Shown piece by piece: positions 1-64,000 of a DNA stretch of 64,000 nt. The position numbers were made by a program, and so were the translations under genes. Under the pieces are notes generated by a model. It saw only the letters and a program-made list of their open reading frames with translations, ran no database searches and was not told where the DNA came from. Every line of letters starts with the position of its first letter. The first letter of the stretch is position 1. The DNA comes from Psammoneis japonica (lineage: Eukaryota). The stretch covers positions 372,001 to 436,000 of the forward strand of contig QPGO01000053.1 of NCBI GenBank assembly GCA_008632985.1, read 5' to 3'.

Positions 1-14
1 TGTTGCAGCATTGA

Positions 15-31060: not shown

Positions 31061-31081
31061 GCTCTCTCGGTTGAGAGGGAG

Positions 31082-41398: not shown

Positions 41399-44300
41399 TG
41401 TCCCTGAACGGTCTTGACACATACGGTACATACAGTGCCGGTGCTGTAAGTTGTCCACGTACCGCACCGGTGCGCACGAACACGAAAAATTGACTGCAGC
41501 CACAGTGTTCGGGTTTTTCTGTAACAGAATTTCTAACTTCGAGGTGTCAGCAATCCCGGTCATTCGAATCTCCCGAATCTTGCAGCCGCTGACGCAGTTA
41601 TGACGTAGAAGTTTACTTCACTCTTCCCTTCCGCGATGATTCATGCAAATGCTTTGATTCGCAATCCATCTGTCATGCCGAAGTCAATGTGGCAAAATGT
41701 GCCGAGTGTCAATCCTTTCAAATGCATGAGGCGCTCTTTGCATTGCAACAGCACTCTCATTCACATGAACTTGTGCAACAAGAAAAGGGCCAAAAAATCT
41801 GGCTTCCAATTTGTTGGCAGGATCGTCTGTCTTGATCAAAATTTGCTGCCCGACACGACAATCGAAAAAGCGTCTTTTGAGATTTTGCTGGTGCAAGTTG
41901 TCATCAGTCAACCCTTGTTGATGACTCCGAGTGGTGACCAAATCTCCAATGAGAGGCAAATCAAGAAACACGTCTCTCTGGCAGATGAGAGCTCCTGGCG
42001 AAATTCTTAAAACTCTCGAGGTGGCGCATCGCAGACTGTGCACAGTTGCAGCCAATGCATCATCAACAATCTGTTGAGCTTGTGCACATTGTGAGAAGGA
42101 TGTCCTCTGATTGCAGCTTCAATGACGTTGCCAGCAGACTGATGCATTCTCTCACAAATGGCGCTGGCTTGAGGATTTCTGGTGGGGGTGGTTTCCACAC
42201 CCTCAATTGCTGCTGTCGCCAATGGAATCTGAAATGGTTTGCCAACAAATTCACCACCCTTGTTGTCAATGCAGCAGTCCAGCCTTGGACATCTGGCCAA
42301 CCAACAATTGGCAAACTTCATCTGCGCATGATCTGAAGTCTTGTTGTTGACGCGAACCAGTTCAACGAGGTCAGAAACAGGGTCAATCGCAGTCAACATG
42401 TCAAACTCAACTTCCTGCTCTTGCACTCACATTTTCCAAGGACCAGTTGAATCAACAGCAACTTCATCCCAAGGAACCAAAGGAGCTTCTCTTGGTGGCA
42501 AATGGCTCCATCGAACTCCCCAAAGCTTGTTCCTTTGGCGCACATTGCAGCGACAATTTTCAGCCAATCGTCGCAGCACCAGATGATGACAATGTGTGCA
42601 AATCAAACAACAAAGCTTCTGTGTGCCACAATGCCCTGAGACTTGACAATGTCGCCTGACAACAGGAGCCAACAAGGCTGTTGGCAAAGTGATTTTCCAG
42701 CCATTCTCCTGTGTGCATTGAAATTCCACTGCCGCTCTTGACTCAGCTCTTGATCTTCAAACTGAAACCTTTGCACTGCATCTCTTCTGGACTCAGACAG
42801 TGCAAAAGGCAATTCACCAATTCTTGATCTTGAACAGTGCAAAACAAGGTGCTCAATTCAGGGCCCAAATTTTCTTTGAGCGACTCATCTTCTGGAGCCA
42901 TGGCAGTTGGAGGAACCAAAAAATCAACAATGGCGCCTTTCAACTCCACTCTAGAACTCTTCCCTTTCACAGTTTTCTCAACATGAGAAAATCATGAAAA
43001 GAAGTCAGCCAGAATGTTCTCCTTGCCTTCAAGACATCTGAACTTGGGTCCAAATTCTTCAAGAAAAAGGCGCCAACAAAGTGCTTGTTGCACACTCAGC
43101 ATCTTGAAGGTGAAGTGCTTGTCGTGATCCATGTGGGCTGTTGTGTCAGCTCCCAACAACACAGATTGAAACTCTTTAAAACAAAGAACTGCAACAAACA
43201 TTTCTTTTTCCACAGTGGAGCAATTCTTCTGAGCCACACTGAGTTTTGGGGGCCAACATGCAACCAGCTTGCCGCTCTGAGTGATGACTGTGCCAAGCTG
43301 ACAATCGCTCGCATCTGTGCAAATCTGAAAAGGAAGGTTGTGATCAGGGCAAGCAAGTGAAATGTCATCCACAACAATGTGAGTTCTTTCACAGGCATGG
43401 ACTTGCCCAACCACTTGACTGTCCTTGATGAGAAATTTACATGGATTCCTGCCTTGGTCAAAAAATCTGTGATCCAAGAATCACGTTGCATTGACACAGC
43501 ATTTGAAACACCAGCGCTTTTTGAAAATCAACACTTCTTGACATGTCAAATTCAGGCAGTGCAATTGTCGAGTCAGGACCAAACTTCTTCTTGTTCCCAC
43601 CAGAATCCATGTCCTTGGCCTTGCACTTCTTGAGCTCATCTTCAGGCTTGCCAAAGCTCTTCTGATCAGCAAATCCTTTTTCATTGGACACATGCTGGTC
43701 CATGTCTTCCAAGGAATTGGTGCCAACATCTTTTCCCATGTGCACACAATTCTGCTTCCATGTCATTGGCACTCCTGTGAACACACCATTTTTGGTCTGT
43801 TGCTCATTGAGCAAAGGCTCAGTGTCTGGCAACTTGTCAGCACAACGTGACATCTGAGTCATCCTGCCAGCATGCTCATGAGGAGAATCACCAAGAGGTC
43901 CAGAAAAGTTTTCAAAAATTCAAACATTGTGTCACATGCTTGACAATTGCAGTGTCACTGACAAAAGCATGCAACCTCAATGTCAAACCTGGCCATTGTC
44001 CAAACAGTTTCTGTGACACCCGAAACCAGATTGCTCCACATGTCTTGAGAATTGTCTTCCAATGCTTCTTCAAAATGAGCAAACTTTTCAGGTCCTTCAT
44101 CACAATCCAGATGCTCGGCACAGTTCTTAAAGCATTCTGCAGTGTGGAGCAAGCACTTGATGCCGCACTTGCCAGTGAACTGAGGGCACATTTTCTGCTT
44201 CTTGGTGCCATCATCACAGTTTTGTGCGAGCTTCCCTTTGTCCAAATCTCCGTGTTTGAAGGTTGGTTTGCTGCACACAAAGCATGGTGCTCTCAACGAG

Positions 44301-44580
44301 GCTCTCACCAAATGCAACATTGACCTTGCGTTTGAAGCAAAGAGTGCCACAGCAAAGAAAAGAGAAGGAAAGAACAAGACACAGTGTGATCACATTGAAT
44401 GGTCTTGACAAGTTGTCCATGAATGCACTCTAAAAATTGCAAGGAAAAGCTGTGATTGACTGCAGCCACAGTGCTTGGGTTTCTGTCACAGAGTTTTTTT
44501 GAGGTGTCAACAATCCTGGTCATTCAAATCTCCCAAATCTTGCAGCCGCCCACACAGCTGTGATGCAGAAGTTTGCTTCA
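41399..44580 (-). mobile_element. Ty3/Gypsy LTR retrotransposon 1, internally deleted
   Basis: LTR-like copies at about 41399-41620 and 44395-44580. PPT at 41621-41633. Integrase (PWDEVAVD..NPQASAICERMH) and RNase H ([21 protein letters not shown]) remnants. RT is missing. Confidence 0.85.
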
Positions 44581-47460
44581 ATCCCTGAATGGTCCATGTG
44601 ACTGTCACTGAACACTTTCTAAAATTGTGAGAAAAGACTGCAAGTGAGGTCTCAAACCTTGCTTGCATTTCTGTCATGGAGCCTTCCACGGAACGTTTTT
44701 TCTGACACTGAATGTCCACAGGACTTTCTGCAGATGCCACAGTCCTGGTCACTTCAATCTTTCAAAGAATCTCCACTTGATGATGCAAGCATGACATGGA
44801 AGTTCACTTCACTCTTCCCTTGCGGTCAACTTGAAGTTCTGAATCACAATCTGACCATGGTGCAGTTGGTGTGGTGAGATGCGCCAAATGTTGATTTGCT
44901 CAAACACATGAGGTGCTCTTTGCAAGATGATGTTTCCATTCACATGAACTTGTGCAACAGCAAAAGGGGCCAAAAGCTTGGGCCTCCAACTTGGTGGGAT
45001 GATCCGTCTCAATCAAGACTTGCTGCCCAACTTGACAGTCGAGAAAGCATCTCTTGAGATTTTGCCGATGCAAGTTGTCGTCAGTCAATGCTTGGCAATG
45101 ATCTTGGATGGCAGCTGGGTCCCCAATGAGTGGAAGATTGTGAACATGTCTCTTTGGCAAACCAATGCTCCTGGCAAATTTCCCAAAACTCTGGAAGTGG
45201 TGCAACGCAGACTGTGCATGGCAGCAGCCAGAGCGCCATCCACAATTTGTTGTGCCTCCACCAGGTTGTGAGGAGGATGTCCTCAAAGCATGGTTCAAAC
45301 AATGTTTGCTGCCATTTGATGCATTCTCTCACAAGTGGCATTGGCTTGGGGATTTCTTGTTGTTGTCTCCATGTCCTTGACTCTGGCTTGTGCCAGCAGC
45401 CTCTGAAATGGTTTTCCCACAAATTGCCACCTTCATCATGAATGCAGCAATTGGGTCTTGGATGTTGAGCCAGCCAACAATGGACAAACTTCATCTGCAT
45501 GTGGTTTGAGCTCTTGTTGTCAATGCAAGATGACTCAACCAGGTTGGCAACCATGTCAATCACCGTCAATGCATTAAACTCAACTTCTTCTCCTTGTGCT
45601 GTTGTTTTCCACAGACTGATCAGATCCACTGCCACTTCATCTCATGGAACCAAGGGAGCTTCTCTTGGTGGCAAATGGCCATGCCCAGCTCCTTTGAGCT
45701 TGTTCTGTTGACACATGTTGCAACAACAATTTTCAACAAGCCAATGCAGTGCCAGTTTGCAGGAATGTGCACAAATGGAGAGGTGCAGGTTTTGTGTGCT
45801 GCAGTGTCCCAGCACTTGATGATGCCAATCAACAACAGACGGCAATGAGGTTGTTGGCAAGGCAATTTTCCAATTGTTTTCTAGTGTGTTGATTCCAGGC
45901 CTCCAACAAATCAGCGGAGCTCTGCCCACACATTGCATGGGAAATTGAGTTGGGTCTCATTCCCATTCTTGATTGAGTGCTTGAAATCTTTGAATTGCAA
46001 TCTTTGGATGTCTGGACAGTTCAGTGGGTGCTGCATTTCCTCCAGAGCTGGACAATTTAAAAAACAATCCACCATCTCTGGATCTTGAATTGTGCAAAAT
46101 GGGGTGCTTGACTCCGGACCCAAGCTTTGTTCCAATGGCCATCTTCTGGTGCCAAAGCTGCCCGCAGAAGAGAAAAGTTGATGAGTTTGCCTTTTGATGA
46201 AACACATGAAGTCTTCCCTTCCATGGTTTTCTCCACACAAGGAAATCATGAAAAGAAGTCTGCAAGAACATTCTCTTTGCCTTTGATGTGTCAAAATTTT
46301 GGTGCAAATTCTTTGAGGAACAGACGTCACCATGTTCAATGTTCTGAACATCAAGTTTTCATGATCAGCTCAGACAGAAATGTCGGCTCCCAGCAACACA
46401 GACCAAAACTCTTCGAAACAAAGAACAACATGGAGCATTTCCTTTTCCATGGTTGAGCAGCTCTTTTGTGTGCTGTTGAGTTTGTGTGGGACCAACATGT
46501 GATCAACTTGTGATTCTGGGTTGTTGCTGCTCCCAGTTGACAATCACTTGCATCTGCACAAATTTGAAAAGGAAGATTGTGGTCAGGAGAGGCAAGCAAT
46601 GCATCCCCTGCCATGATGGCCTTGATCTCTGCAAAAGCCTTTTGACAGGCTTGACCACTCAAACTCTTTTTTGCTGGTCAGCTCCATTGAAGGCACCAAA
46701 ACGTGTGATCGGCAAGGCCACACATCATGACAGCAAGTGACAGCCCCAACAAAGGATCACAACCAAGTGTTGTTCTTCAGAGGTGCAAGTCTGCACACTG
46801 CCTCCACCTTTTTCCAGATTTTGACCCCTCCTGGTGTCATCCAATGACCAAGAAAATTGGTTTCTTGAACAGCCCATTTGCATTTGAGCGAGTTGACTTT
46901 CAAGCTGTTCTTTTCAAGTCATTGGAGCACTGCACTGATCATGACCAAGTGTTCCAACCAAGACTGCTGGGAGTGGATTCCAACATTGTTGACAAAGCAA
47001 TCGACATCCATGTTGTGCATTGCTTGTTCATGGTTGATTGTGCAACATCTGGAGCCGGTTTCAGCCCCATCGCCATTCGACAATGTTGAAATTTGCTGTG
47101 CGGAGTGACGATGGTGCACAATTCCTTAGATGACTCCTCGTTCAACTCCAAATGGTGGCAAAACACCATCAAATCTAACTTGGCAAAGTGCTTGCAGCCC
47201 ATTCTGTGCTTGAGAACATCTTGCACCCTTGGTGATGGACAAACCAGGCACTTCAAAGCTTTGTTGAGTTCTTGAAAATCGGGTGCCCATTGCACTCGTT
47301 GATCCTTTTTGGGAATGACAAATGAAGGAGAAGCCCACTCAGCAGGACCACAAGGTCTCAGCACTCCCAACTTTGCAAGATGTTGGAGCTCTTTTTTGAA
47401 TGTCTCTTCCTGCATCTTGGGAACAGAGTGAGGTTGAGCATGAACTGGAGTGGCCTCCGG
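44581..47460 (-). mobile_element. Ty3/Gypsy LTR retrotransposon 2 (related family), 5'-truncated
   Basis: 3' LTR about 44581-44811, then the same PPT (ctcttccctt). Integrase, RNase H ([13 protein letters not shown]) and RT (EWASPSFVIPKKD..DFQELNK..CTIVTP..RMAMGL..CFVNNVGI). Confidence 0.85.
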
Positions 47461-47774
47461 GTCTGTTTCTAAGTGGACAGACTTGTGTGGATGTCAACCC
47501 AAATTTCCATCAAACAGCTTTGAAAACTTGGGGACAGCACTTGTTTTGGCTCCACTTGTTGAGCCCTTGAAAGATGTTTTTGCTCTCTGATGACCTTTCC
47601 AGGTGACACTGGCTCACACTTGGCATCCAGAATTTGAGCAGTGCACACGTGGGAACAACACAATGGGCAAGCATCACATTGCCCAAATCTTCTTCTTCTG
47701 TCTTGGCACCTGCAAAAGCAAAGCAAGCACTCTCTCTGTCATCCCAAAAGACCTGTTTTTGCCGGTGATCATTG

Positions 47775-49461
47775 TCTGAGCCTTGCATGGTCTCAAGTTG
47801 TCAGGTGCACGATTTTGAGAACATGTGGCAGGTGGCAGCCACTTTGCATGATGCTGGTTTTGAGTCATGCAAGGCTGATCTAGATGTCTGGATGAGGGCT
47901 GCAGTTGAGCTGGATGGCTTCAAGCACTGGAAACATGCACTTGTCCATGCAGATGATTTGTTGTGCATCTCCCATGAACCCCAAAAGGTTGTGGATTACA
48001 TGAGCTCTGGGTGCACATTGAAGGGCGGAAGTGTCTGCAAACTGGAAGAGTGTCTGGGCACCCAGATCAGAAAGTGCCAGTTGTCTGATGTGGATGGCAA
48101 GACACACTGGACCATGTCCTCTGACTTGCATGTTAAAAGGGCACTGGTTGATGTTGAGCTGGAGCTCAAGAGGACAGACAGGCACCTTCCAACAAAAGCA
48201 TCAACATCCTTGAGCTTGGGACACAGGCATGAACTGGATGGCTGACCAGAGTTGAGTGCCAAAGTGGCCAACTGCTGCCAAGGCCTTGTTGGTGTGCTCC
48301 GATGGACAGTTGAACTTGGATGAGTTGACATCTTTGTTGCCATCTCACTCATGTCCTCCTGCCTTGCAGCACCACAAGTTGGACACCTGGATGAGGCACT
48401 CCATGTCTTTGCATGCTTGAAGGCTTGCTCCAAGTCTTTGCCAGTGTTCTGCTTTTGACAAGAGTTGGTTTGCCAAGTGCAACTGGGAAGAACATTGCCC
48501 TGGCATGGCTGAACCACTGCCACTGAACATGCCAGAGACATGTGGGAATGGGGCAGTCACTGTTTTGTCAACACGGATCATGCCGCATGCCATGTGATGC
48601 GCAGGTCTTGCACCGGGATCTTGACATTCATCCAGCAAGTGCCCATCTTGCACTGCTCCAAATGGCTTGACACCACAGAGTCCTCTGCTTTTGGGTCCAA
48701 GTTCATTGCAATGAAGACTTTGGTGGAGCAGATTGAAGCTTTGTGGAACAAGCTTCGGATGCTTGGAATCCCCATGAATGGGGCCACTGACATCTTTTGT
48801 GACAATGAAGCTGTCTTCAAGAACTCAACCAGGCTGGAGTCCACATTGAAGAAAAAGCATGATGCAATTGCCTGTCACAGGACTCTTGAGGCACAAGCCG
48901 CAGGAATTTTGTGCATTGCTTGGGAAGACAGATGCACAAATCTTGCGGATGTGCTGACCAAGTTGTCACCTGGACTGAAGCTCTGGGAGATCACATCACA
49001 AGTCATGTTTTGTGGTGAATCCCAAAATGGGACAAACTGAATGGATTCACCACTTGGGTGTGGTTTTCCCTCCCCCAAAATTAAAACATCACCCTGGAAC
49101 AGGGCAGCATCAGGTTGCATTTGTCTGTAAATCTGGCTCAAGCAGAGCCAGCGTCAGTTCAAGTGGACTGAACAAATTCTGACACACTGCCACGGATGTG
49201 GGCAGTTGTTTGCCATTGATGATTGGCCTGCTGTTGCTCATTTGGTGGCCCCAGCAGCACAATCTCTCACAACTCTAGAACCTGTTGATGCTGTTCAACA
49301 CTCTGTCTTGTCTGTCACCCAATTCTGGCTGTCATGATAGCATTCATTCATGGTTTTGATGACTTTGAAATGGTGGAACACTTGAGGGTTGCGCGCTGGA
49401 GTTTTTGACCCCCAGACCCATTTCAGTGCATGCCCACATGTCTGTGGAATGTGCCAAAATG
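47775..49461 (+). mobile_element. Copia RT-RNase H 3' remnant plus ~420-bp tail, duplicated at 62298-63983
   Basis: ALHGLK, HALVHADDLLCISH, FVNTDHA..RRSCTG..ESSAFGSKF..FCDNEAV..LKKKH..NLADVLTK. Confidence 0.85.
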
Positions 49462-49969
49462 GTGGTGTTTGTTCACTTTGTCAGAGCCAGTGCACCATGA
49501 CATTCAGATGCCTGGAACGGGCATTGTCAATGGCACAATGGCATCATTGCAATTGATTGATTTTTGTGGCAAGCACCATGGTGGTCCCATGGTTGCCCGT
49601 GCAATTGCTGAGTTCTTTGCACACACACACACATTCATGCACATGAACCAAATGCTCTTGTGGGCCAGAGCAGTGATCCGTTAAGATGTGTCATTTGGGT
49701 GCGGTGTGTTTGATCACAGGAATGTGCCATGTCAGCCAAGCGTGCACACATTCGAGCAGCAGCACAATGACAAATGTCGTTGGATGCATTGCACCACTGA
49801 GAGACAGATGTCTGGATGCATTGATTGTTGGTTTTGCATCAAACAGTGCAAACAATGATGCCAAATGGTGACCTGGCACACTCATGGGTTCGCCAGCGGT
49901 GTTTGCCAAAGCAAATTGTGCACCACACCCACATTTTCCCTCACAAAACTGTTTGTTTGCGCACCAAAA

Positions 49970-52900
49970 TGCAAAACAGCATTCTGATGCACCATGGCCG
50001 CTGCTGCAGCCTTTGCAGCCACTCTTCCACTCTGTGGATGCAACAACCAGATGCGGAAGTGCATCGCCCATCAAGGATTTGCCACTGTTGATGACCTGGA
50101 ACAAACCCCGCTGACTGAAGTCAGTGACATGTTAAAGGATGTTGTGAAAGCAGCTGATCCTGCTGTCAATCCCCAAGTGCACTTCCCCTGCCCAGCAAAT
50201 TGCAAGCTCAAGGCTCTGCAAGCATGGGCCAGCTGCAGGAGAGACCAGAATCAAGAACCTGCGCCAGCCATCATTGACAGGGATGTCATCACCAAGTGAA
50301 CGGTGCACCTTGTGGAACTGGAGCAGCTCAAGTTGGTGGACTTGGATGATGATGCCAGTGTCACTGTGGAGCTCAAGCATCTGTGTGATTGGCCAACCTT
50401 CCAGGAGCTGTCAGAGACTGAGCTGTGGCACCACCAAAATGCTGCAATGGGCATTCCCCTTGTCCACCTCACTGGGGAACATGAAGCCATCACCGCTGAC
50501 ATGTTGGATGCTGCCTGCTCTTCAATTGACAAAGACACTCTGGTGGAAAATGCCAAGAATCGTGGTTCTGACCAGTGTGCCATTGCCTGCCTTGGTCAGA
50601 AGAACAACCAACACGGAAAGGAGGGAGGCAAGGCTGGAATTGAGAAGGACAAACCTGGGATTGGGGTTGGTCACTGTTCTCCTGATGACTGGAAGGCTCC
50701 AGGCCAGGAAGGCCAGGAGGAGGTCAACAAGTCACACAAGGAGTGCAAGGCCGAGTGCAAGCACAAGGCTGACTCTGTCTCAACGGATGACAGCAAGGAG
50801 CAGGAGACTTGCTCCTTGAAGAAAGTGGCCATCGTTGACCCCAAGGTGGATGAGCCTGCCACTGATGAAGCACCAAATGACTCTGATGAGTCTGAAAAGA
50901 AGCCTGCTGTGGATGCCAGCAACCAATTTGGGTGCAATGCTCACAAGAAGAAACCCTCCAAGGAGGAATGAATGGTTGCACCAGCACCAAATGGTCTGGA
51001 ATCATTTTGTTCTAGACCTGCTGGTGCCATGCATTCATCTGGGTGATTCCCAAAAGATGCCCATTGCTCATTGGCATTGGCTTGCAAGTCTGACACTGTG
51101 GCAACAAACAACTTGGACTCGTGCACTGACACTTGTGCTGTGGGTTCCAACTTTGTCATGTTCTTCAGTGCTGATTGCACTGCAGCTGTGCACTCATGCT
51201 CCAATGAGTGTGGACCCTTGCAAGACATGCCTGTTTGCACGGGGGCTGCCGCACCTCACAGTGACACAAAGGGAGATGGGCCACATGGCAGATGTGACCC
51301 AGACGTTCACCTGGACTGTGATGAATGCAAGTGCTTGCATGTGTTGTCAACCTTGGGCAGTGCTTCAACCATCACTTCCAAGATTCCATCTAAAAGGCAG
51401 AACATTGGCCCAAAATGGCTGCAAAGAACACACCCTGAAGGTTGTGACCCAGGCCGGGGTCCAAAATGTTTGCACCCCATCCAAATGAAGGGTTTGGAAG
51501 AAAGCCCTTTGGCTGAAGTTCCCTGCTGCAAAGGGATGCTTCTGCTCTGACCAGTTGTTTTCAAAGACCAAATCAACACATGGCAAGATGGGGGGTGGCA
51601 TTTTTACCAACAGGAGAGGGCATGATGAATTCTGTCCTTGGAAAAAGAAGCAGGACCATCCTGAAGCTGCTGCAATGTCTTTCATCCATGAAGCTGGTGT
51701 TTCACAGACTCTTGTGTCGGACGGCACACCAAAAATGGCAGAAGGCCAAACCAAGGAGATCTGCAAGGAGCGTGGGATGCACCAGGAGGTGTCCACACCA
51801 TGCAGCCCCTGGCAGAACCTGTCCAAGGCATCCACTCTTGAGTTGAAGAAAAGAGTCAGGGTGACTCTGTGCCAGACTGGTGTGCCACGATGACTGCAGT
51901 CTTGTTGTGCTCAATTTCTGGCACTTTGCAGCTTCAAGCACATCTGACATGGGAGGACATGTCCGGGAGGAGGAGATCTCAGGCTCAACACCTGATGTCT
52001 CAGCTCTCTCACTTTTTGATTGGTGTCAACCTGTGTGCTGTTGTGTGTGCCTGTGGAGGAATTCCCACACAAGAAGAAATGTGCAGCTTGGAGCAGCCCA
52101 CAAATTTGCCAACAATGTGGCATTCATCATGCTGCCCAAATTGGGCAGACCCATCATCCGAAAGGATGCATGGGCAACACCGGATGATGATCTTAAGACT
52201 CTGGCTGTTGAGATGAATTTGTCCTCAGTCAATCAGGCTTTGATCAAATGCCTTGGCACCCCAGATGGGAATGCAAAGGTTGACTTCCCTGAACTCCCGG
52301 ATGATTTTGTGGACTGCAAATGGGGCGATGCAATGGATCCTGTGAACCAGATTTAGTTGGGCAAGAGGCTCATGTGAGCATGCCCCGGAGGGGTTAGATG
52401 AGTGCCTCACAGCCCAAATCATGTTGCCATGTGGTGGTGAATTGACCCATGCTGGGGTCATCGCATGCAAGCAAGATGGTGATGGGGCTCCCACAGGTGC
52501 CAGGAATGACAATCCTGTCCTGGACTCTGGACGGATCCATGGACTCCTGCACTGCTGACGCAACTGCAGAGAATGCATTTGCACAAATGGACACTGAAGG
52601 CAATGCCTGTCAGATCCTGAAAGAGATGGTTGGTCACTGAAATGCTGATGACAGGTGCACAACACTGGCAGGCGTGTGCCCAGAATGACCACCATGGGGT
52701 GGAATCTGCAGGTCAAGTGGAAGAACAGAACTGTGTCCTGGGTTCCTCTCCAGGATTTGAAGGAATCAAACCTGGTTGAGGTTGCCAAGCACGCTGTGGC
52801 AAACAAAGCAGCCATTGAACCAGCATTTAACTGGTGGGTCCAAGACGTGTTACGTTGCAGGGCCAGGATCCTAAAGAAGGTCAAGTCGCGTTGCTGGAAA

Positions 52901-53150
52901 CGTGTGCACAAGTTCGGAATTGAATTCTTGAAGACTGTTGAGGAAGCCACAGAGAAGACAACAGAACGGGGACCAACTTTTGGTTTGAGGCCATAAGAAA
53001 GGAAATGTGGAACGTCATGCCTGTGCTCAAGTTCCGTGACGATGACACTGTCCTGGTCGGGCACAAGCATGTTGATTGTCACATGGTCTTTGATGTCAAG
53101 AGCACCTTCCAATGCAAAGCAAGGTTTGTGGCCGGAGGCCATCAAACCAA
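49970..53150 (+). mobile_element. Copia (CoDi-like) gag-PR-IN and start of RT, heavily degenerate
   Basis: Protease LDSCTDTCAVGSNF, integrase (LVSDG..TPCSPWQN), TTMGWNLQVKWK..SWVPLQDLKESN..EPAFNWWV and CHMVFDVK..KARFVAGGH. Confidence 0.85.
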
Positions 53151-54953
53151 TCACAATGTCACAATGCACACTGCATGCAAGTGGCAGCGCCATCATCGAC
53201 CATGATGCCGTCGTCTTTCCTTTGAGCTAGGGCCCCACCCAAGAGAGATTGAATCGACTGGACGGTGCTGCAAAGTATGTAATTTGCATTGTTTTCGCTT
53301 TCGAGCTTGCTGTTACAGCACTGCGTATGCGCTCCGAAATTGTGTGTTTTTTGATGCCGGGCAGTTTGGTGCATTCAAATTTGAGTCGGTTTTTGTGCAA
53401 GCACGTGAGATTGCATCTCCGTTTCCTTTTTTTTCAACCAACAATCTCACCCGCACGTTTCTGTGATAGATTTGTTCTCTTTAGGACAATGCTGTGGGCT
53501 AAACAACCCACGATGATGCCAAAAAAGTAGATGGAAACCATTGCTCGTGGATTGCGCTGCTCTGGAATTCCTACAACAATTTTACGGGTGATTAGTAGTA
53601 ACACTACTTGGGCAATAATATCATGGAAGCGATCACTTTGTGTTGGCCTCGTGTTGGGGATAAAATTTTGAGAGTTTGGGGCTTGCGACATTTGATGCAA
53701 GAAATTTTTAAGGAGAAAGCACCGCACTCTTATAAGAGGAGATTCGCCCCGTATTTGAAAAAGTTTTGTCAAGATCCCATGGAAAGTTAGGTCACTGATG
53801 ATGCCAAACTGACTTTTTTTAAAATTGACTGTAGCTGTGTTATTACTGCTACGAAAAACCGGCGCAACAGACGGAGAAGAATTGGCAACTCAACGATTTG
53901 CTCGATGCCAGTCAAGTTGTCGTTTTTGTTTGCTCGCGCCAAGAAATTTAATCGCTTGTTGGCTGCGCAGCATTTGCATCCATGCCGATCTATTCCAGAA
54001 CAAGAAGTGCACCTCGAAATGCAAAAGAGTGCTGCTAGATTGAAGAGCTGGCGGGAATGGGGATGGGTAACGTAGGAGTGCTGGGAATGATTAGGGTGGT
54101 AGTGCCGGGATATTGAATTGGGTATTAGTAAAAGCCGGCAACTGGATTGAATTGACATACAAGTGGATACAAGGCAAAGAAACATGGTAGTAGCAGTGCA
54201 TGTATGTATGGGAAGCTACACTAGAGAAACAAGTATCAAGAACATAGAGAGACGGGGACGGGCAGTTTTTAAAGTAAAAGGTGACAAAGAAACGTAGGCT
54301 CTGCCTGCAAAGTGGACCCCCACTTTACACATTCAAGGGTAGGCGAATCTCATCAAGCTCTGCAAGGTAGAACACTGTATTTAAAATGTTACACAAACCA
54401 TTCCTAGAGTCGCTACGACGACATTCAAAAACCGTTCGACGCCGCGTGCCGATACCCCCGGCTGGACCATACGCGATTGCTACAAAAAGGTGTAATACCG
54501 GCTGGACCACACGATTGGTACATATATGCCAAGTCGCGTCTCTACGGAAAAATCCGACGTCTATCAAAGCATTCTGATCCAACGTAGAGGAAATTCTGGG
54601 TTGCTTCCCTGTGTGCTAAGAATATTTTGAGAAAGCTCGTGGTGAGCGTGTCGATCAGATGGAAAGAACTTCAGCTATCTTCCAATGTAAAAAACGGTAT
54701 CGCCGTCAAAAACAACTTTCCCATCCTATCCTAGACCCTGCTTTTTTCAATCAGCACACTTCTGTAGGAGGACTTGACGCCTCCGCTCCTTTCTGCAAAC
54801 AAAGTAGGCGACACATTCGTTGATCGACCGTGAACGCCGACAGGATCTATGTGGTCTTCCCCATTCCCCGCCGTCGAGAATATGATTCCTTAGCATTTAC
54901 TACCTGAGACTGATAAAAAAAGCTAGACCCCATATATGTGAGAAAATAAGAAA

Positions 54954-57479
54954 TCAGTCGTCACTTATTCTTACAACAGCATCTAGAGCATCCGACAAGT
55001 ATTTGGTGCGGTGTTTCCGACCAGATTTCATGGATGCGTCCTTTGCCGCCAGTTCGTCCCACTCCCAAAACGGCACTGACACAAGAAGGTAGTCCTCTAG
55101 TTTTGAAAGCTGGCGATGCTTGAGTATTGTGGATCCCGTCGGTGAACGATCAGCAAGAAAATGACTCGGTCCATCAACCTCGATGCCAACAAGTTTCTGG
55201 TCGTACTTCACAACTGCATCCAGGCTATATCCGATAGCAGTAATGACCTCTTCCTCTGGCAGGAGTCCCAGTTCAGAGAGCGTATCAGCGACATCCTTCT
55301 GAAGCTTGGATGGTTTCCCTTGCTCTTGCACAAACGCATTGCGACACTCATGGCATAAAGCTACATCGAATCGCGAGGGCATGTCGTGCTCTCGAAGCCA
55401 CAACACAACTTGATGGAGTTGGAGCATTCCATGACGGGAAAACAATGAAGCTTTTGAATTACAGATCTCGGCGTATTTGGCACCGAGTAAATCATCTGTA
55501 CAGTGGTCGCAAACCGCGTACGCCCAAACCATATTCGCAATCTCTTGAGGTTTGAACTTTTCCAGTTTCCGCATTGACACTTTGGCAATGGCATCAAAAA
55601 GCAACGGAGACGAGTGCCCAACGGTGGCACATGCCCAAACCGCATTGGCAAGGTTTTGCGGGTGGAACTTTTCAAGTTTCCGCATTGACACTTCGGCAAT
55701 GGCATCAAAAAGCAATTGAGATGAATGTCCAACGGTGGCAAATGCCCAAACCGTATTTGCAATATCTTGAGGCTTGAACTGTTCCAGTTTCCGCATTGAC
55801 ACTTTGGCAACGGCATCAAAAAGCAATGGAGACGAATGTCCAACGGTGGCAAATGCCCAAACCGCACTGGCAAGGGCTTGAGGCTTAAACTTTTCCAATT
55901 TCCGCATTGACACTTCGGCAATGGCATCAAAAAGCAACGGAGACGAGTGTCCAACGGTGGCAAATGCCCACACCATATTTGCAAGGCCTTGCGGGTTAAA
56001 CTTTTCCAGCACCCGCATTGACACTTTGGCAATGGCATCAAAAAGCAACGGAGACGAATGTCCAATGGTGGCACATGCCCAAACCGTATTTGCAATCTCT
56101 TGAGGCTTGAACTGTTCCAGTTTCTGCATTGACACTTTGGCAATGGCATTAAAAAGCAACGGAGACGAGTGTCCAACGGTGGCAAACCCCCAAACCACAT
56201 TCGCAAGGGCTTGCGGGTTAAACTTTTCCAATTTCCGCATGGACACTTCGGCAATGGCATCGAAAAGCAATGGAGACAAGTGTCCAACAGAGGCAAATGC
56301 CCACACCACATTTGCAAGGTCTTGCGGGTTGAACTTTTCCAGCATCCGCATTGACACTTCGGCAATGGCATCAAAAAGCAACGGAGACGAATGTCCAACG
56401 GTGGCAAATGCCCAGACCGCATTCTCAAGGTTTTGCGGGTTGAACTTTTCCAGTGTCTGCATTGACACTTGGGCAATGGCATCAAAAAGCAACGGAGACG
56501 AATGTCCAACGGTGGCAAATGCCCAAACCGCATTGGCAAGGGCTTGAGGCTTAAACCTTTCCAATTTCCGTGTGGACACTTCGGCAATGGCATCAAAAAG
56601 CAATGGAGACAAGTGTCCATCAGAGGCAAAAGCCCACACCACATTGCAAGGGCCTGGGGTGTGAACTCATCAAGTTTGGAAATTGATGCTTCAGCAATGG
56701 CATAAAAAGAAAAGGCGATGAGTGTCCAACGGTGGCATGTGCCCAGACCGCATTGGCAAGGCTTTGCGGACTGAAGAGGCTCATCTTTGGAACTGATGCC
56801 ATGGCGAGTTCATCGAAAAGCTGGGTTGAGGATTGTCCAGACTTTGCAAATGCCCACATGGTCATGGACAAACCCCTTGGAGAGAGACTGCCTTTTGCTG
56901 CATGCACTCGCCCTCCCAATTCATCCCAAATGGCTGTCCCAAACTTCAGCCTGCTCACGCTGGACATTTTTGCTAGAGAATGTGCAATCGAACCAACCGA
57001 GTCAGAAGCATCACAGTCCATCACTTTCATGGCACCTTGCAGCATGCGCTGCATCTCTTTTCCGCAGCTTGGCAGATTCACTCACTCAGTTCATTCCTTG
57101 GTGCGATTGCTGCAATGCGGTTCCAACAAAACGAAATGTCCTTTGGGCTCATTTTGTCGCTGTTCTTCTGGTGAATGTCAAGAACTCCAGAAACTCTTTT
57201 GATGTTTCTTGGGTTGGGTGATCTCCAATTTCGGTTGGCATTGCATTGCTTTTGTTCTGTTTGAGGCCCTCTTGCCCCTCTTGCATCACGCCTCATGGAA
57301 CGATTTCCATCACTCCTCCTGCCACCATCTTCACTTTGTTGGGTCATCATGAAATAAGGCGACGCATTTTCCCTCCAAAACGCCAAACAACTCGACTGAC
57401 AAACATGTCGATGAATCGGCACGCACCCAACAACACTGCACAGCGCCAACAGCAGCAACAGCTTTCTCATCCCAAACAT
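54954..57479 (-). pseudogene. RAP-domain protein with 37-aa helical (OPR/FASTK-like) repeats; frameshifted and partly hypermutated
   Basis: C-terminal RAP domain (SKLQKDV..GYSLD..IEVDGPSHF..TILKHRQL..VSVPFWEW). About 11 FxPQxLANxVWAFATVG repeats. N-terminal targeting-like sequence. Frameshifts near 56645, 56703 and 57080, which may be assembly errors. Confidence 0.8.
55530..56780 (-). repeat. 111-bp coding tandem repeat (about 11 units)
   Basis: aaaagcaa(c/t)ggagac-type anchor recurs every 111 bp (e.g. 55930, 56041, 56152, 56263, 56374). Confidence 0.92.
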
Positions 57480-58599
57480 GTGCCACGATCTTTGAAGTCT
57501 GCAAAAGCCATTGAGTCAAATTCTCTCATTTCTCTCTTGCAACACAATGATTGAGAATGGCAGCTTCAGCTTGTCAACCGCATCACTCAATGCAGTTTTT
57601 GATGTGCCTTGCATCGTTGTGGGTCGATTTCTCAACACAGAACTGGAACACCGAGCGATCGATCGATCAAGCAAAAGGTGATGGTGGTCTGTGCCTCTGC
57701 CGGTGCCCTGCGCAAGTGGGGGGTTGTTCGACGCCGGTTGCATCGCAGGTCTCCTGGTGAGTGGAAGCAGTGTGCAAGACTGCAAGCGCCAAGCAGAGCC
57801 GCAGCAGGCTTCAATTTCCGGTTTCTGTGAGCCTTGTTGCCAAGCTCATCCAACTGGACTTTGCTGGTCACAACAGGGATGAGTTGACTCTCAAGGTGTC
57901 AACCTGCCCAAGCTGAGCAAATTGCTTGTGGGGCCTGGCCTCTACATGCTGACAAATTCACAGCAGAGAAAGAGCCCTCGTCACCTGCAGATGCCAGGGC
58001 CCTGGAGGGGCTTGATGATGCAAAGGTTGCAACCACTGTTTGAATGATGCAACAGCCCAATGATGATGGGCTGCACACTGTGCTCTCAGCAGCTTTTGGC
58101 TCCAGAGCCAAGCCACGTTGCACGCCCCAGTGCTGTTGTTTGTAATGCAGACAGTGGTGTTGGAGGCAGTGAAGGGTGCAGGCCATTGGCATTGAGACTT
58201 GCCAAAGTTGACATGTGCTCCCATTGTGCTGGGGATTGCAGAGACACCCACACACCAGTCTCCAGCACCTGCGCACATTGCAGTGCCCAGGACAACAGAA
58301 AACACCGTGCACAACGGGCAGCGCAACAACAGGCTCAACACATCCTGTGGGAGTGACTGAGTGAGTGATTGCACAGTGTCAAAATGCAGTGCATTTGGGA
58401 CAACATTGCACTGCCAGCCAACTCAAAAAAAACAGATCTGCATTTAAAGTGCTGTCACTCCCTTGCCAGCTGAGCCGGCACCGGCAGACCCACACTTCCA
58501 CTGCACCGTCAAGTGCGGCAGAAGCTTGCTTGGATCAGCCAGAATGTGGGTGCCACCAAGAGCCAACACCCCTCCAAATTGAGTGAGTGCTGCAAAGTG

Positions 58600-61500
58600 C
58601 TTCATGCTTTGCCTTCTTGAGGCCGCTGTCTTTCAGGCATGGTCTGTGAAGCAGAGTGGGACATGTGGTCATCGACTGAATCTAAGAGCACGTCCCTGTC
58701 TTTGGCAAGATGTTCCTGTTGTTTGTTTCACACAGCCGCAAGTTCAGCTTCCACCTGTTGGTGCTGAGATGATTGCCTCGACTCTGCATCATGGCCGTGA
58801 ACCTCTCAATTGTGTTCTTCCCAAAGTTCCCACCAGAGCTTCCAAATGAAAGTTCCTGTCTGCACTCCCCAAACCAGAGGCAGACGATTTTCCCTGTGAC
58901 ACTTCTCCAGCAGGCCCGTCTTGCAAAGGTGCATCTCCTGAGAAACATTTCAAAGGGTGGAACACCTGCTGACAAACACTTGTCACTGTCCTGTTTCTGA
59001 TGGGGCTCTCCACAGCACTCGCAACATTGGGGCAGCATCTGACTCGTGCATCATCTCACCTCGGAACCATGCTTCAATGGATGTCAACAACAAATCTCAA
59101 AGAGGTGGCATTGTGTCAATTTTGTCACAGTGTTTGCACAGACCTTGTGAGAATTTACAACGCCAGGCCTCATTCTCTGGACAATGTAGAATGTCGTGAT
59201 TGCGATCTTCCATTGGGCTTTTGCATGCAAGACAATGATGTGGCCACACTGGATTGCATTGATGAGTGATTTTGTTTGCAGGAAGAAGTTCATCGATGAG
59301 TTTGACAGTGGACAAGTGTTTCTTGGAGTGCTGTTGGACAAGTGTTGCATGAACATTCAAGTCAATCTTCTCCATGGTCGATTCATCCCAGTCGTTCCGT
59401 TCCCAAACACATGCAAGGAGAGCGGGAGCTGTGGTGGCGTGTCGAACAGTGGATTTCAGTCCTGCAGCAACAGTTCCATCTGCAAGGCTCAGGTGCAATT
59501 GGCAGCAGGGAAATGGGATCACCACCTTTGTGTCAGATTCATGTTGACCTTGATGCCATCCTGCCAATTTGTCAGCATGCACATTTGCTTGAGTGTCAAG
59601 TGGGAGAGTTTCAACTGGAGAGTGTCTGTCCTGGTGCCCTTTCACCCACTCGATTGGCGGAGCCTGACCTGGGGAGGAGGAGTTGAGAACTTGTTTGGTG
59701 GCTGTGAGCATTTGATGTGTTTCATTGATGATGTCCCAGTTGGATGACAGTGCATTGGCATTGTGCTGACACAAATGAAAATCTCTGTCAGACCACTCTT
59801 GTGCCGAAGGGTCAATTGAAGGGCAAGCATGAGACAGTCTGGAAAGCACCCAAACCAAGGCCTTGTTGTCACACCAGTTGTCAACCCCTTCATGCAATGG
59901 CATCTTGCAGAACTCAAGCAGACAAAAAACAAACCATGCAAGGGACAAGAAACCATGAGCCTTGGTGCGATGAGATGACGGCATTTGACCAAATGCCAGA
60001 CCAGCGCAGTCCACCAAGGTCTGCCCTTGAATGTGACAGTCCATCCAAAGGTTGCATTCTGATGAACAACTGAACTGTTGCTGCCTGTCACAAGGTGACA
60101 TGATGCAAAATGATCCACCATTTCTTAGAGAGAGGTGTGAAATTTGATGGCAGAGAAGAGAGTTGACTCCCAGGAAGGCAAGGCATGCAGGCAGTCTGCA
60201 AAAAGGTCAGGCAAGGGAGTGCTTGTTTCCACCAAGAGTTTTGGGCAATGAGGCACATGTTTCCATCGTTGATCATGGGTGGTGACCATCTTGTCTGGGA
60301 ATGATGAGTCAAAGGGGGAGGGAACAGTCTTGGTCTGATGCAGCAACATCGTTGCTGTGTCCTGGACCAAAAACACATCAAAATGGTTGGAGATCAAATG
60401 TGCAAGTGCGATTCTTCTGGAGACCAGCATGCAGAGGATTGCATCCTCATCTTAGAAGGGGGAGCCAGCCAGTCACCCAAGGGAGCCTTCAGGCAAACTG
60501 AGTCTTGACAACACAACAACCCACACAAACGCATCCAGGGACCCCATGCCCGATGGCAAGACTTGGTCTGTTGTGCATTGTTGAGAGCGCTGACACTGCT
60601 GAGGTGCACAGGATCACCATGGGCTTTGGACTGTCAAGGAAGCACCCATTGGCCAGAGTGACATCCGAGATGGTGAGGACCTGAAGATGCAAGTGGCAAC
60701 AGCCAATCCACCTGATCTCTCGAGAAGAAAATTCTTGCGACTCCAGGGCAATGTCCATTGAAAACTGATCATTGACTCATTGCAGAAGGAGGACTCCATC
60801 TTGGGTCAATGCAGTGCTGCCTCCGACACAATGCAGAAAGGACCAAACTGACAAAAACCACAGTGACTTGCCACATGGATGGGGAGTGCTGATGTCTCTG
60901 AGGAAGCCAACCCCCGCGCACCCCAGGAGAAGCTGATTCCATGCAATGGCAATGTGCACTGCTGCGTGTGGTTGATCATCCTGCATGAGATGCTGTGCTC
61001 CATGGGAGTGTTTTAGAAGCTGTTGCATTTGAGCCACACCCTGCTCAACATCAAGAGATTTAAATCCTCCACCACCAAGAGATTGCGGGCCACACAGGAT
61101 CAGATGCTTGGTGTTTCAATTGCAGCCACATTTGGCAAAGACAACTTGCATCACACGTTGCTGAATCTACAACAACACTTTGGAGGCAAAGTGAGAACTG
61201 GTGAGAACAAAAGACATCGATGGCAGATGTCACGAGTGACAGTGTTGCCATGATTTGGTGCGATTGAGTGGCACAGCCCTGATGAACAACACTTTTCCAT
61301 CACTCTTGGTTTGGAGAACTTGTTGCTGTTTCTTTAAAGTCCCTGCCGGGGAAGGGTGATGTCCCAGAGTTTTGTGGGGAGCACAGGCAGACAACTGTTT
61401 GCTGCATCTAGATGCAGATTGAATGGATGGAGACTTGGTTCACCAAATTCAGAGAAATCTCACTCAATGGCTGGTGTGAAAGGAGCACTTGGGAAGTTCT

Positions 61501-62050
61501 AATTTGTGCCCACTTGTGTGGAGCAAATTGCACCAGGTCTTCTGCAGAAGGTCGAGGCAATGCCCGGAAGTCATTTGCTTGTTTTGACGTGTTGTTGACA
61601 TGTCCTTGAGTGCAGATGTTGAGCTGATGGGACCTGTCTGGTGATTCAAAAAGCACTCCATTGGCCTTGAAGTCAAAGATGTCAAACAGAAGACTGCAGA
61701 GGTCACTCCAGCAAAGCAGGGAATTGCCGCTGCCTTGGCCAGTGCCATGGATGGGGTGGTCTGTGCCATGAGAACACGAGACTCCATGGAGAGGCCCAAC
61801 AAGGTCAGCAGCCAATGCCAAGCAAGATGGACAGTGGAAATCGCACTGTCGCCACAGCCGAAGGTTTGTTCCACACCCAAACCAACTGACATGATCACCA
61901 TGAGAACTGGGAGATTCCTGTCATGGCACAAGGTGCAGTCATCATTGCTTGTGATTGACATCTTGTCAGAAGTCCTTGAGATCTCCAACATGAGAACTTC
62001 CAGGAATGCGGGAGTCTGAGCACACAAAAAGGCCCATGTGCTGCATGTGC
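58600..62050 (-). mobile_element. Non-LTR retrotransposon (LINE with RT and RNase H), degenerate
   Basis: NDDCTLCHDR (DxxxCYDR), HGTGQGSGNS (YGxGQGS), GHVNNT (YVDD), RNase H WVKGHQD..NVHADKLA, zinc knuckle CLACK..DILHC and C-terminal WELWEEHN*EVHG. Confidence 0.85.
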
Positions 62051-62096
62051 CTGGGTCAAACAGCCGATGTTGTTCCATGTGTTGCGTTGGGGCCCT

Positions 62097-63983
62097 CGAC
62101 CCAAAGAATCAACCTGCTCCAGTGTGGTGTCATGTGATGGCATCAGGACAGCATTTGCCATTGCTGCTCTCAATGATCTGGAGGTCTTAAGCGCTGATGT
62201 GCAGAGCACCCACATGAACGTGCACACTGAAGAAAAGTGTCACACTGCTGCTGGCATGGAATTTGGGAAGCACAATGAAGGAAGGCCAGCGATCAATGTC
62301 TGAGCCTTGCATGGTCTCAAGTCATCAGGTGCACAATTTTGAGAACATGTGGCAGCCACTTTGCATGACACTGGTTTTGAGTCATGCAAGGCTGATCCAG
62401 ATGTCTGGATGAGGGCTGCAGCCAAGCCGGATGGCTTCAAGCACTGGAAACATGCACTTGTCCATGCAGATGATTTGTTGTGCATCTCCCATGATGCCAA
62501 AAGGTTGTGGATTACATGAGCTCTGGGTGCACATTGAAGGATGGAAGTGTCTGCAAACTGGAAGAGTGTCTGGGCACCCAGATCAGAAAGTGCCAGTTGT
62601 CTGATGTGGATGGCAAGACACACTGGACCATGTCCTCTGACTTGCACGTTAAAAGGGCACTGGTTGATGTTGAGCTGGAGCTCAAGAGGACAGACAGGCA
62701 CCTTCCAACAAAAGCATCAACACCCTTGAGCTCAGGACACACAGGCATGAACTGGATGGCTGACCAGAGTTGAGTGCCAAAGTGGCCAACTGCTGCCAAG
62801 GCCTTGTTGGTGTGCTCCGATGGACAGTTGAACTTGGATGAGTTGACATCTTTGTTGCCATCTCACTCATGTCCTCCTGCCTTGCAGCACCATGAGTTGG
62901 ACACCTGGATGAGGCACTCCATGTCTTTGCATGCTTGAAGGCTCACTCTGAGTCTTTGCCAGTGTTCTGCTTTTGACAAGAGTCGGTTTGCCAAGTGCAA
63001 CTGGGAAGAAGGTTGCCCTGGCATGGCTGAACCACTGCAGTCAAACATGCCAGAGACATGTGGGAATGGGTCAGCCGCTGTTTTGTCAATGCCGATCATG
63101 CCGGATGCCGTGTGATGTGCAGGTCTCACACTGGGATCTTGACATTCATCCAGCAAGTGCCCATCTTGCACTGCTCTAAACAGCAGAACACCACAGAGTC
63201 CTCTGCTTTTGGGTCTGAGTTTGTTGCAATGAAGACTTTGGTGGAGCAGATTGAAGCTTTGTGGAACAAGCTTTGGATGCTTGGAATTCCCATGAATGGG
63301 GCCACTGACATCTTTTGTGACAATGAAGCTGTCTTCAAGAACTCAACCAGGCCAGAGCCCACATTGAAGAAAAAGCATGATGCAATTGCCTGTCACAGGA
63401 CTCTTGAGGCACAAGCCGCAGGAATTTTGTGCATTGCTTGGGACGACAGATGCACAAATCTTGCGGATGTGCTGACCAAGTTGTCACCTGGACTGCAGCT
63501 CTGGGAGATCACATCACAAGTCATGTTTTGTGGTGAGTTCCAAAATGGGACAAACTGAACAGATTCACCACTTGGGTGTGGTTTTCCCTCCCCCAAAATT
63601 AAAACATCACCCTGGAACAGTGCAGCATCAGGTTGCATTTGTCTGTTAATCTGGCTCAAGCAGAGCCAGTGTCAGTTCGAGGAGACTGAGCAAATGCTGA
63701 CACACTGTCATGGATGTGGGCAGTTGTTTGCCACTGGCAATTGGCCCACTGTTGCTGCTCAATTGGTGGCCCCAGTTGCACAATCTCTCACAACTCTAGA
63801 ACCTGTTGATGCTGTTTCAACACTCTGTCTTGTCTGTCACCCAATTCTTGGCTGTCATGATGGCATTCATTCATGGTTTTGATGACTTTGAAATGGTGGA
63901 ACACTTGAGGGTTGCGCGCTGGAGTTTTTGACCCCCAGACCCATTTCAGTGCATGCCCACATGTCTGTGGAATGTGCCAAAAT
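62097..63983 (+). mobile_element. Copia RT-RNase H remnant plus tail (second copy of 47775-49461, extending further 5')
   Basis: PKESTCSSVVSCDGIRTAFAIAALNDLEVLSADVQ..EEKCHT..EFG..ALHGLKSSGA, then near-identity to 47775-49461. Confidence 0.88.
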
Positions 63984-64000
63984 GCCAACGGTCCAAATAA

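What the first reader, a model, noticed from the sequence alone, without database searches (positions are those of the whole stretch)
54954..57520. Hypermutation encroaches on a host RAP-domain gene, with a gradient across its repeats
The RAP domain and last repeat keep Tyr (WAYA at 55518, KYAE, GYSLD, VKYD, EDYL, TKYL). Upstream repeats read WACA (55629, 56073) and WAHA (56737). AAT-ACG/AAT-ATG junctions (NT/NM) alternate with AAT-GCG/AAT-GTG (NA/NV), and ttaaac alternates with ttgaac. The 5' part of the gene is almost TA-free. This suggests collateral damage by spreading from the adjacent TE block, or triggering by the 111-bp tandem repeats. It could also diversify the RNA-recognition residues of the repeats.
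Basis: partly seen in the sequence, partly recalled or inferred. Interest (0 to 1): 0.72.

Follow-up and report, generated by a model that had tools for sequence, protein, structure and literature searches.

The report
TA-erasing hypermutation kills diatom gene copy
In a probable diatom, a mutation process that rewrites TA to TG or CA in silenced DNA has run about 2 kb into one copy of a repeat-built RNA-binding-protein gene and stopped just before its last domain, while two near-identical sister copies keep the original letters and so record the before and after.

Summary
Real and directional. Two near-identical copies in the same assembly (C355, C569) keep the TA steps that the window copy lacks. 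Against C355, the 5' part lost 11 of 13 TA and 13 of 34 CG, with no reverse change. The last repeat plus RAP domain lost 1 of 20 TA; the 3' flank lost 0 of 42. The repeats hold 9 TA against 24. The profile is step-like, and the trend inside the array is weak. C569 shares the depleted upstream block yet keeps the gene's TA, so the edge moved into the gene. The window copy reads dead (CGA>TGA at 57084; 8 of 11 TA hits non-synonymous), so diversification is not supported here. Neither proposed trigger suffices: nine paralogues, some with equally alike repeats or next to depleted blocks, are spared, while paralogue C10 is eroded with no block within 9 kb. TA and CG hits fall in same-strand runs (29 events, 7 runs; post hoc, repeated in only one other pair). 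The mutation type matches a 2026 Bigelowiella preprint; the leakage resembles fungal RIP with a different base change. This scan has already reported the process, and leakage into host genes, on other DNA of this genome.

The parts
54954..57479 (-). Damaged copy of a 37-residue-repeat (HPR/OPR-like) gene with C-terminal RAP domain; likely start codon 57479, stop 54954-54956
   Evidence: Translation, Pfam, ATG position, 666-residue open frame over the same 5' part in sister copy C355
56821..57545 (.). Non-repeat 5' part, most heavily mutated: 11 of 13 TA and 13 of 34 CG of C355 read TG/CA here, none the other way
   Evidence: Pairwise spectrum; alignment of 8 copies
57082..57084 (-). Premature TGA from CGA (a CpG transition)
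   Evidence: contigs of runs X1 and X2 show the CGA letter at 57084
56643..57093 (-). Span holding three 1-base deletions (at about 57092, 56703, 56643); real or assembly error unresolved
   Evidence: X1 and X2 contigs show an extra base at each; sister copies carry their own scattered 1-base deletions
55522..56769 (-). Tandem array of 111-bp (37-residue) units, partly mutated: 9 TA in units 3-12 against 24 in C355 and 24 in C569; WAHA and two WACA where C569 has WAYA
54954..55550 (-). Spared 3' end: last repeat and RAP domain (Pfam RAP about 55047-55184); 19 of 20 TA kept at 54954-55520; 13 of its 21 TA could have changed silently
53300..54953 (.). Spared 3' flank, shared with C355; 42 of 42 TA kept at 53901-54660; no Pfam match in 4 frames tested
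57546..58424 (.). Low-copy upstream DNA, already TA-depleted in both the window and C569
58425..60600 (.). Start of a multi-copy repeat element (39 further matches, most beginning at about 58425), TA- and CG-depleted; family not identified
52200..53151 (+). Multi-copy, TA-depleted retrotransposon fragment bounding the island on the left, with a sharp edge; the Copia-type label rests on recalled motifs

Best explanation
The window copy is a dead allele or recent duplicate of an organellar-type helical-repeat/RAP gene. It was drawn into the silent domain that lies upstream of it. Inside that domain a DNA-level process turns TpA into TpG or CpA on both strands, while CpG decays to TpG/CpA alongside. 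The domain's edge moved about 2 kb into the gene after this copy split from C569 and C355, weakened across the tandem array and stopped at about 55550. Shown: direction, both strands, position of the edge, lack of selective filtering, resistance of TTAA. Inferred: that a chromatin state spread from the upstream block, that the lesion is adenine deamination, and that the spared 3' end lay outside the domain rather than being saved by selection.
For: 11 TA and 13 CG changes against 0 reverse at 56821-57545; 24 of 30 substitutions there are of these two kinds. TA loss 11 of 13 there against 1 of 20 in the RAP end, Fisher P 4e-6; CG 13 of 34 against 1 of 28, P 0.002. Both outcomes occur: 7 TG and 8 CA on the gene strand among 15 TA events. 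C569 matches 57153-60532 at 93%, has 11 TA in 2903 upstream bases against 8 in the window, yet keeps 14 TA that the window lost in the 854 columns it covers of 56570-57545. TA hits are non-synonymous 8 of 11 times against 19 of 28 possible, and a CG hit makes a stop. Silent-mutable TA and non-coding flank TA survive at the 3' end. X1 contigs show the TA-keeping letters at depth 72.6 of 117.4 at 57173-57257, leaving about 45 that fit the window letters, and list no other letter at 57033 and 57424-57439. The same mutation type was seen de novo in Bigelowiella natans.
Against: Adjacency does not predict damage: C136a, C136d, C391/C136e and C143 (block upstream) and C136c and C37b (block downstream) are spared. 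C10 is eroded at about 623600-625200 with TA-rich flanks and no depleted block within 9 kb. The left edge of this island and both edges of the sulfatase gene are sharp, within about 400 bases, so a 2-kb slope is unusual. At 56823-57101 the one X1 contig carries the sister-copy letters at 11 places, so most window letters there, including the TGA, were not seen in the run contigs; contigs drop variants. X1-X3 are one sample and may be the source of the assembly. No methylation, chromatin or expression data were available.
Confidence: 0.62

Rival explanations
1. The process nucleates on the gene itself, at its 5' end or on a long repeat array, and fades downstream over about 2 kb. The upstream element is incidental or only raises the dose.
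For: C10 has the longest array (20 units counted) and shows 0 TA in units 2-8 rising to 4-5 in the last two (rho 0.77, P 0.0001), with WAHA 8 and WACA 7 times, intact flanks and no close copy found. In all three partly hit loci (window/C355/C569, C10, C136b) the RAP end is spared. C355 and C569 show a milder slope of the same sign.
Against: C391/C136e, C37a and C136a have 12-14 units and no loss. The window, C355 and C136b all have a depleted block upstream, so only C10 separates the models. C10 and C355 agree at 10 of 12 sites where distant paralogues have TA, so part of the signal may be inherited from an ancestor in another setting.
Confidence: 0.25
2. The process covered the whole gene and the slope is made by selection on the RAP domain or by homogenisation among repeats.
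For: Units 2 and 3 read AATGCG/AATGTG in all three sister copies, and window units 5 and 6 resemble them, so some array variants may be copied rather than new hits.
Against: 13 of 21 TA in the spared end have a silent route and remain; the non-coding flank keeps 42 of 42; the copy carries a stop upstream; the non-repeat 5' part cannot be homogenised.
Confidence: 0.07
3. The window allele is an artefact of long-read base calling at modified bases or of a mosaic consensus.
For: All close copies carry scattered 1-base deletions; the X1 contig at 56756-57172 and the X2 contig at 56740-57484 carry sister-copy letters.
Against: About 45 of 117 depth units in X1 at 57173-57257 do not carry the sister-copy letters; outcomes split between TG and CA; the same loss marks C10, C136b, C49 and C78 with diverged outcomes.
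Confidence: 0.06

Closest known systems
TpA-restricted hypermutation of integrated giant-virus and virophage DNA in Bigelowiella natans (Mettrop et al., bioRxiv 10.64898/2026.01.13.699255; read parts 1-3 of 5 plus term passages; supplements not seen)
   Same: TpA>TpG and TpA>CpA, localised, on nuclear DNA, with long-term TpA loss and TpG/CpA gain
   Different: There the targets are viral inserts and the rate was measured in mutation-accumulation lines; the main text has no occurrence of 'CpG', 'diatom', 'flank' or 'host gene'. Here the target is a host gene copy in a probable diatom, CpG decays alongside, and sister copies fix the edge.
Repeat-induced point mutation (RIP) leakage into single-copy genes (Leptosphaeria maculans, PMC3105345; two passages seen)
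   Same: A repeat-directed mutator overruns into adjacent genes; proposed there as a source of gene diversification
   Different: RIP makes C>T changes (abstract listing of PMC6963459) and gains TpA (recalled); this process removes TpA by A:T>G:C. A dependence on homology or on the sexual cycle is not shown here.
Methyl-CpG decay in silenced diatom repeats (PMC9998398 seen as search listing only; mechanism recalled)
   Same: CG>TG/CA in the same stretch
   Different: Cannot account for TA loss, which is the stronger effect here (85% against 38%)
HPR/OPR helical-repeat proteins with RAP domain (PMC6212722 and PMC13126933, term passages seen)
   Same: 37-residue repeats without PPPEW, C-terminal RAP; sequence matches to mitoribosomal mL115 and trypanosome RESC6/RESC8
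   Different: An expanded, highly homogenised family in this genome (15 copies examined); no HPR profile, targeting or RNA-binding test was run

Membership tests
Bigelowiella-type TpA hypermutation | A:T>G:C transitions confined to TpA, giving TpG or CpA | tested here: met
   11 of 13 TA changed to TG/CA; only 6 of 30 substitutions fall outside TA and CG
Bigelowiella-type TpA hypermutation | Both outcomes (both strands) | tested here: met
   7 TG and 8 CA on the gene strand
Bigelowiella-type TpA hypermutation | Confined to local regions | tested here: met
   Edge at about 55550; flank 42 of 42 TA kept; block structure of the window
Bigelowiella-type TpA hypermutation | Target is DNA of viral or foreign origin | tested here: not met
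   Target is a eukaryotic RAP-family gene with many paralogues and homologues; it lies beside repeat elements
Bigelowiella-type TpA hypermutation | De novo rate about 1000-fold above background, in a subset of lines | not testable with these tools
   Needs mutation-accumulation lines; 1.9 hits per TA against about 1% other differences is only a historical proxy
Bigelowiella-type TpA hypermutation | Candidate ADAT2/3-type deaminase | not tested
   No search for the enzyme was run
Fungal RIP and its leakage | C:G>T:A changes that gain TpA | tested here: not met
   TpA is lost, with no gain at 56821-57545
Fungal RIP and its leakage | Overrun from repeats into adjacent single-copy DNA | tested here: inconclusive
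   Fits this locus (C569 control); six adjacent paralogue loci are spared and one non-adjacent copy is hit
Fungal RIP and its leakage | Triggered by duplication in premeiotic cells, RID methyltransferase (recalled) | not testable with these tools
   No life-cycle data; enzyme not searched
Methyl-CpG decay | CG>TG/CA excess in the silenced stretch | tested here: met
   13 of 34 against 1 of 28
Methyl-CpG decay | Cytosine methylation at these sites | not testable with these tools
   No methylation data
HPR/OPR-RAP proteins | Tandem 37-residue repeats, no PPPEW motif | tested here: met
   111-bp period, translation, definition in PMC6212722
HPR/OPR-RAP proteins | C-terminal RAP domain | tested here: met
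   PF08373, 44.7 bits against a cut-off of 24.2
HPR/OPR-RAP proteins | Match to the published HPR or OPR profile; organellar targeting; RNA binding | not tested
   No such profile or predictor was run; matches to mL115 and RESC6 are by sequence only

The most novel reading that the evidence does not exclude
The TpA mutator can nucleate on host repeat-protein genes without any neighbouring element (C10), works in same-strand tracts of about 100-200 bases in which adenine at TpA and cytosine at CpG are both deaminated, and so recodes the repeats (Tyr to His/Cys, Thr to Ala) of genes that may stay open and expressed. That would be a somatic-hypermutation-like diversifier of organellar RNA-binding proteins in diatoms, with the window copy as an overshoot that died.
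Probability: 0.1. Interest if true: 0.88.

Novelty: new variant of a known kind. Interest (0 to 1): 0.62.

Why it matters
A TpA-directed mutator has, in my searches, been described in one preprint, on viral inserts of an unrelated alga. This locus gives a three-copy before/after series for it in a host gene: same upstream block, different edge. That makes the main open questions testable on one short stretch: what marks a target, how the edge moves, and which base is altered. If the same-strand coupling of TA>TG with CG>TG holds, the lesion at TpA is on the adenine and arises in the same events as the CpG loss, which points to a deaminase. It also shows a cost of this genome defence, the loss of host gene copies, and warns that His/Cys-for-Tyr variants in such genomes are mutational footprints rather than adaptations.

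Tried and rejected
Strand tracts as a general property: not supported. No excess of same-outcome neighbours in 10 full-length retrotransposon copies (103 of 212 against 105 expected), in C355>C78 (232 events), C423>C78 (167), C136e>C136b (104), C24/C355 or C136e/C391. Only the window's internal duplicate 47761-49461 / 62285-63984 agreed (10 events in 2 runs, P 0.018; 8 events in 2 runs, P 0.028; 15 of the 18 are CG events). Tandem repeats as a sufficient trigger: rejected by C391 and C37a. The ttaaac/ttgaac alternation as evidence: rejected. Discordant outcomes between the window and C10 (5 of 13) as proof that C10 was hit independently: weakened, because several of those TA may have arisen after the split from C10. 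Expression: no RNA holder listed; X2 contigs cover 56600-57484 and nothing upstream, and X3 covers nothing; neither was used as evidence. Run depth was not used as copy number. No allele of C10 was found. Whether C355 and C569 are alleles or duplicates stayed open: the flanks of C355 do not match the rest of C51. No Pfam family in 9 frames from the flanks. No look-alike earlier finding for this protein. No structure was predicted, so which repeat residues touch RNA was not tested. Literature: searches found no report of this process in diatoms; the library lacks most subscription journals.

Full report
Setting. The window is G000:C51:372001-436000 of a 91.4-Mb assembly in 597 contigs. The named homologues listed for a neighbouring PITH-domain gene are diatoms where the name can be read (Entomoneis, Cylindrotheca, Pseudo-nitzschia, Bacillariaceae; most hits are unnamed), so I call it a probable diatom. 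The window alternates between gene-rich stretches (TpA o/e about 0.4-0.85) and blocks with TpA o/e under 0.15, low CpG and high TpG/CpA. The finding lies in a 4.4-kb island between a multi-copy retrotransposon fragment ending at 53151 and a depleted block from about 57550, whose multi-copy element starts at 58425.

The observation. The gene is on the minus strand, from about 57479 to 54954: a non-repeat 5' part, 11.3 copies of a 111-bp unit at 55522-56769 and a RAP domain. The named motifs are at the stated places. TpA o/e falls from 0.54 in the RAP end to 0.14 in the array and 0.05 in the 5' part; the 5' part has 3 TA where 40.5 are expected.

Before and after. A search of the genome found two near-identical copies: C355 (93% over the whole gene) and C569 (5' part, repeats and upstream DNA). 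At 56821-57545, C355 and the window differ at 30 of 724 columns. Eleven are TA>TG/CA and 13 are CG>TG/CA, all with the loss in the window; 2 of 13 TA and 21 of 34 CG survive. At 54954-55520, 19 of 20 TA and 27 of 28 CG survive, with 1 and 4 changes the other way. At 53901-54660, 42 of 42 TA survive. The contrast is significant for TA (P 4e-6) and CG (P 0.002). In array units 3-12 the window has 9 TA, C355 24 and C569 24. C569 reads WAYA where the window reads WAHA at 56737, and has WAYA units that match the window's WACA units. The profile is thus about 15% kept, 37% kept, 95% kept, with a fairly sharp step at the end of the array. The trend within the window's array alone is not significant. 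The ttaaac/ttgaac alternation is shared with C355, and TTAA is the most resistant context (42 of 117 survivors against 40 of 860), so that detail carries no weight.

The edge moved. C569 matches the window's upstream DNA at 57153-60532 (93%), and that DNA is equally stripped in both (11 and 8 TA in about 2.9 kb). Yet C569 keeps 14 TA that the window lost in the 854 columns it covers of 56570-57545. With the same upstream block, one copy was invaded for about 2 kb and the other much less. C355 and C569 themselves carry a milder, older loss (2.2-2.3 TA per unit against 3.9-4.2 in three spared paralogues).

Is the allele real? Contigs of three runs from one sample were laid on 56600-59400. In X1, the sister-copy letters have depth 72.6 of 117.4 at 57173-57257, leaving about 45 that fit the window, and no other letter is listed at 57033 or 57424-57439. 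Against this, the single X1 contig at 56756-57172 has sister-copy letters at 11 places, and the X2 contig at 56740-57484 has them throughout; both show an extra base at each of the window's three deletions. Contigs drop variants and the sample may be the assembly's source, so this is partial support. The deletions may be assembly errors, since C355, C569 and C10 have similar ones.

The copy reads dead. In the C355 frame the window has CGA>TGA at 57084-57082. If the deletion at 57092 is real the frame is broken anyway. TA hits are non-synonymous 8 of 11 times against 19 of 28 possible, CG hits 7 of 10 against 50 of 78: no sign of selection. The spared 3' end is not explained by selection either: 13 of its 21 TA have a silent route and the non-coding flank is untouched. 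The idea that the process diversifies RNA-reading residues has no support in this copy. Which repeat positions read RNA was not tested.

The family as a natural experiment. Fifteen copies were examined (14, plus C569). Among 120 database homologues, the position after W-A is F 404, Y 306, C 24, H 3 of 757. In eight spared paralogues it is C+H 3, Y 29 of 83; in four depleted ones C+H 29, Y 4 of 46. So the variants are not normal for the family. C391 has an array as homogeneous as the window's (mean identity 0.75 against 0.76) and keeps 50 TA in 12 units. C136a, C136d, C391/C136e and C143 have a depleted block just upstream, C136c and C37b just downstream, and all are spared. C136b, with a block upstream and an insertion in its array, lost 54 TA against its paralogue C136e with 1 reverse change, and keeps TA towards its RAP end. 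C49 lies wholly inside a block. C10 is the odd one: 0 TA in units 2-8, rising to 4-5 at the end (rho 0.77, P 0.0001), TA-rich DNA right up to its start, the nearest depleted block about 9 kb away, and no close copy found. It has two 1-base frameshifts of the same doubtful kind and no stop inside its 842-residue frame. It may have been hit in place or have inherited part of the damage: it agrees with C355 at 10 of 12 old sites.

A mechanistic lead. Along 57539-56720 the 29 TA and CG events fall into 7 runs of one outcome (permutation P 0.001; 21 of 27 neighbours alike against 13 expected). The long runs span about 90-185 bases, and TA>TG goes with CG>TG, TA>CA with CG>CA. That is what A>G and C>T on one strand would give, which would place the TpA lesion on adenine. 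I noticed this after the fact. It recurred only in the window's internal duplicate, mostly among CG events, and not in 10 retrotransposon copies or five other pairs. Old, repeatedly hit DNA would blur such runs, but that is an excuse I could not test. It stays a lead.

How it most likely works. Shown: a double-strand, TpA-specific A:T>G:C process, with CpG loss in the same stretch, hit one copy after it split from its sisters, from the 5' side to about 55550. Inferred: a silent chromatin domain extended from the upstream block; a multi-copy, dispensable gene tolerated it, so the damaged copy persists; the lesion is adenine deamination. The main rival is nucleation on the gene itself, kept alive by C10 and by the spared RAP end in all three partly hit loci.

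Comparison with what is known. The mutation type equals that seen de novo in viral inserts of Bigelowiella natans (bioRxiv 10.64898/2026.01.13.699255; parts 1-3 of 5 and term passages read, supplements not seen). That text does not mention CpG, diatoms or flanking host genes, though it notes host-type domains among TpA-poor genes. The target criterion (foreign DNA) is not met here, so I file this as a variant that works like it, not as a proven member. The geometry resembles RIP leakage (PMC3105345, passages), but the base change differs. Four searches found no report for diatoms in the library held. This scan has already noted the process many times in this genome, including leakage into other host genes; those notes are unchecked and gave me the preprint, not evidence.

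Verdict. Observation confirmed; interpretation partly supported. Interest 0.62: a clean three-copy record of a barely described mutator damaging a host gene, with two open leads (C10 and the strand runs), but no enzyme, no chromatin data and a dead target.

Noticed in passing
L025:500-3900 (G000:C10:623500-626900): Paralogue with 20 counted units, WAHA/WACA in 15 of them, a TpA-depleted island confined to the gene's 5' two-thirds, intact flanks and no nearby depleted block; possibly still open apart from two 1-base frameshifts.
   Followed up: partly
L028 (G000:C136:52000-56200): Paralogue C136b: all 9 repeat units TA-free, an insertion inside the array, RAP end partly spared; 54 TA lost against C136e with 1 reverse change.
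   Followed up: partly
window 47761-49461 and 62285-63984: Internal duplicate, 94% alike, inside depleted blocks; the changes in each copy fall into only two same-outcome runs (P 0.018 and 0.028).
   Followed up: partly
window 23769-31316: Full-length Copia-type element with a doubled left terminal repeat and many 91-96% copies in the genome; copies hold 66-133 TA but 491-517 CG, so TA loss runs ahead of CG loss there.
   Followed up: partly
L063 against L094 (G000:C355:3-3415 and C78): Large before/after pair: 103 TA and 129 CG lost in C78 against 3 and 9 the other way.
   Followed up: partly
window depleted blocks (1-4400, 31400-38900, 42000-53000, 57600-64000): Surviving TA are mostly TTAA (36%) and CTAA/TTAG (23%); ATAT and ATAC/GTAT are absent, suggesting a preferred target like RTAY.
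   Followed up: partly
window 39422-41254: Sulfatase gene between two depleted blocks with sharp edges on both sides and little erosion inside.
   Followed up: no
window 57810-58427 against G000:C355:19018-19652: Low-copy upstream stretch only 70-78% alike between the two copies, with 24 TG/CA discordant pairs; in C355 it lies 3 kb further upstream and the match ends where the window's element begins.
   Followed up: partly
window 53300-54950: TA-rich 1.6-kb flank shared only with C355, with protein-like frames that match no Pfam family; what protects it is unknown.
   Followed up: partly
L022 about 7340-7600 (G000:C355:20508-20765): A 258-bp element with weak inverted self-similarity and at least 35 copies at 92-96% identity, MITE-like.
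   Followed up: no
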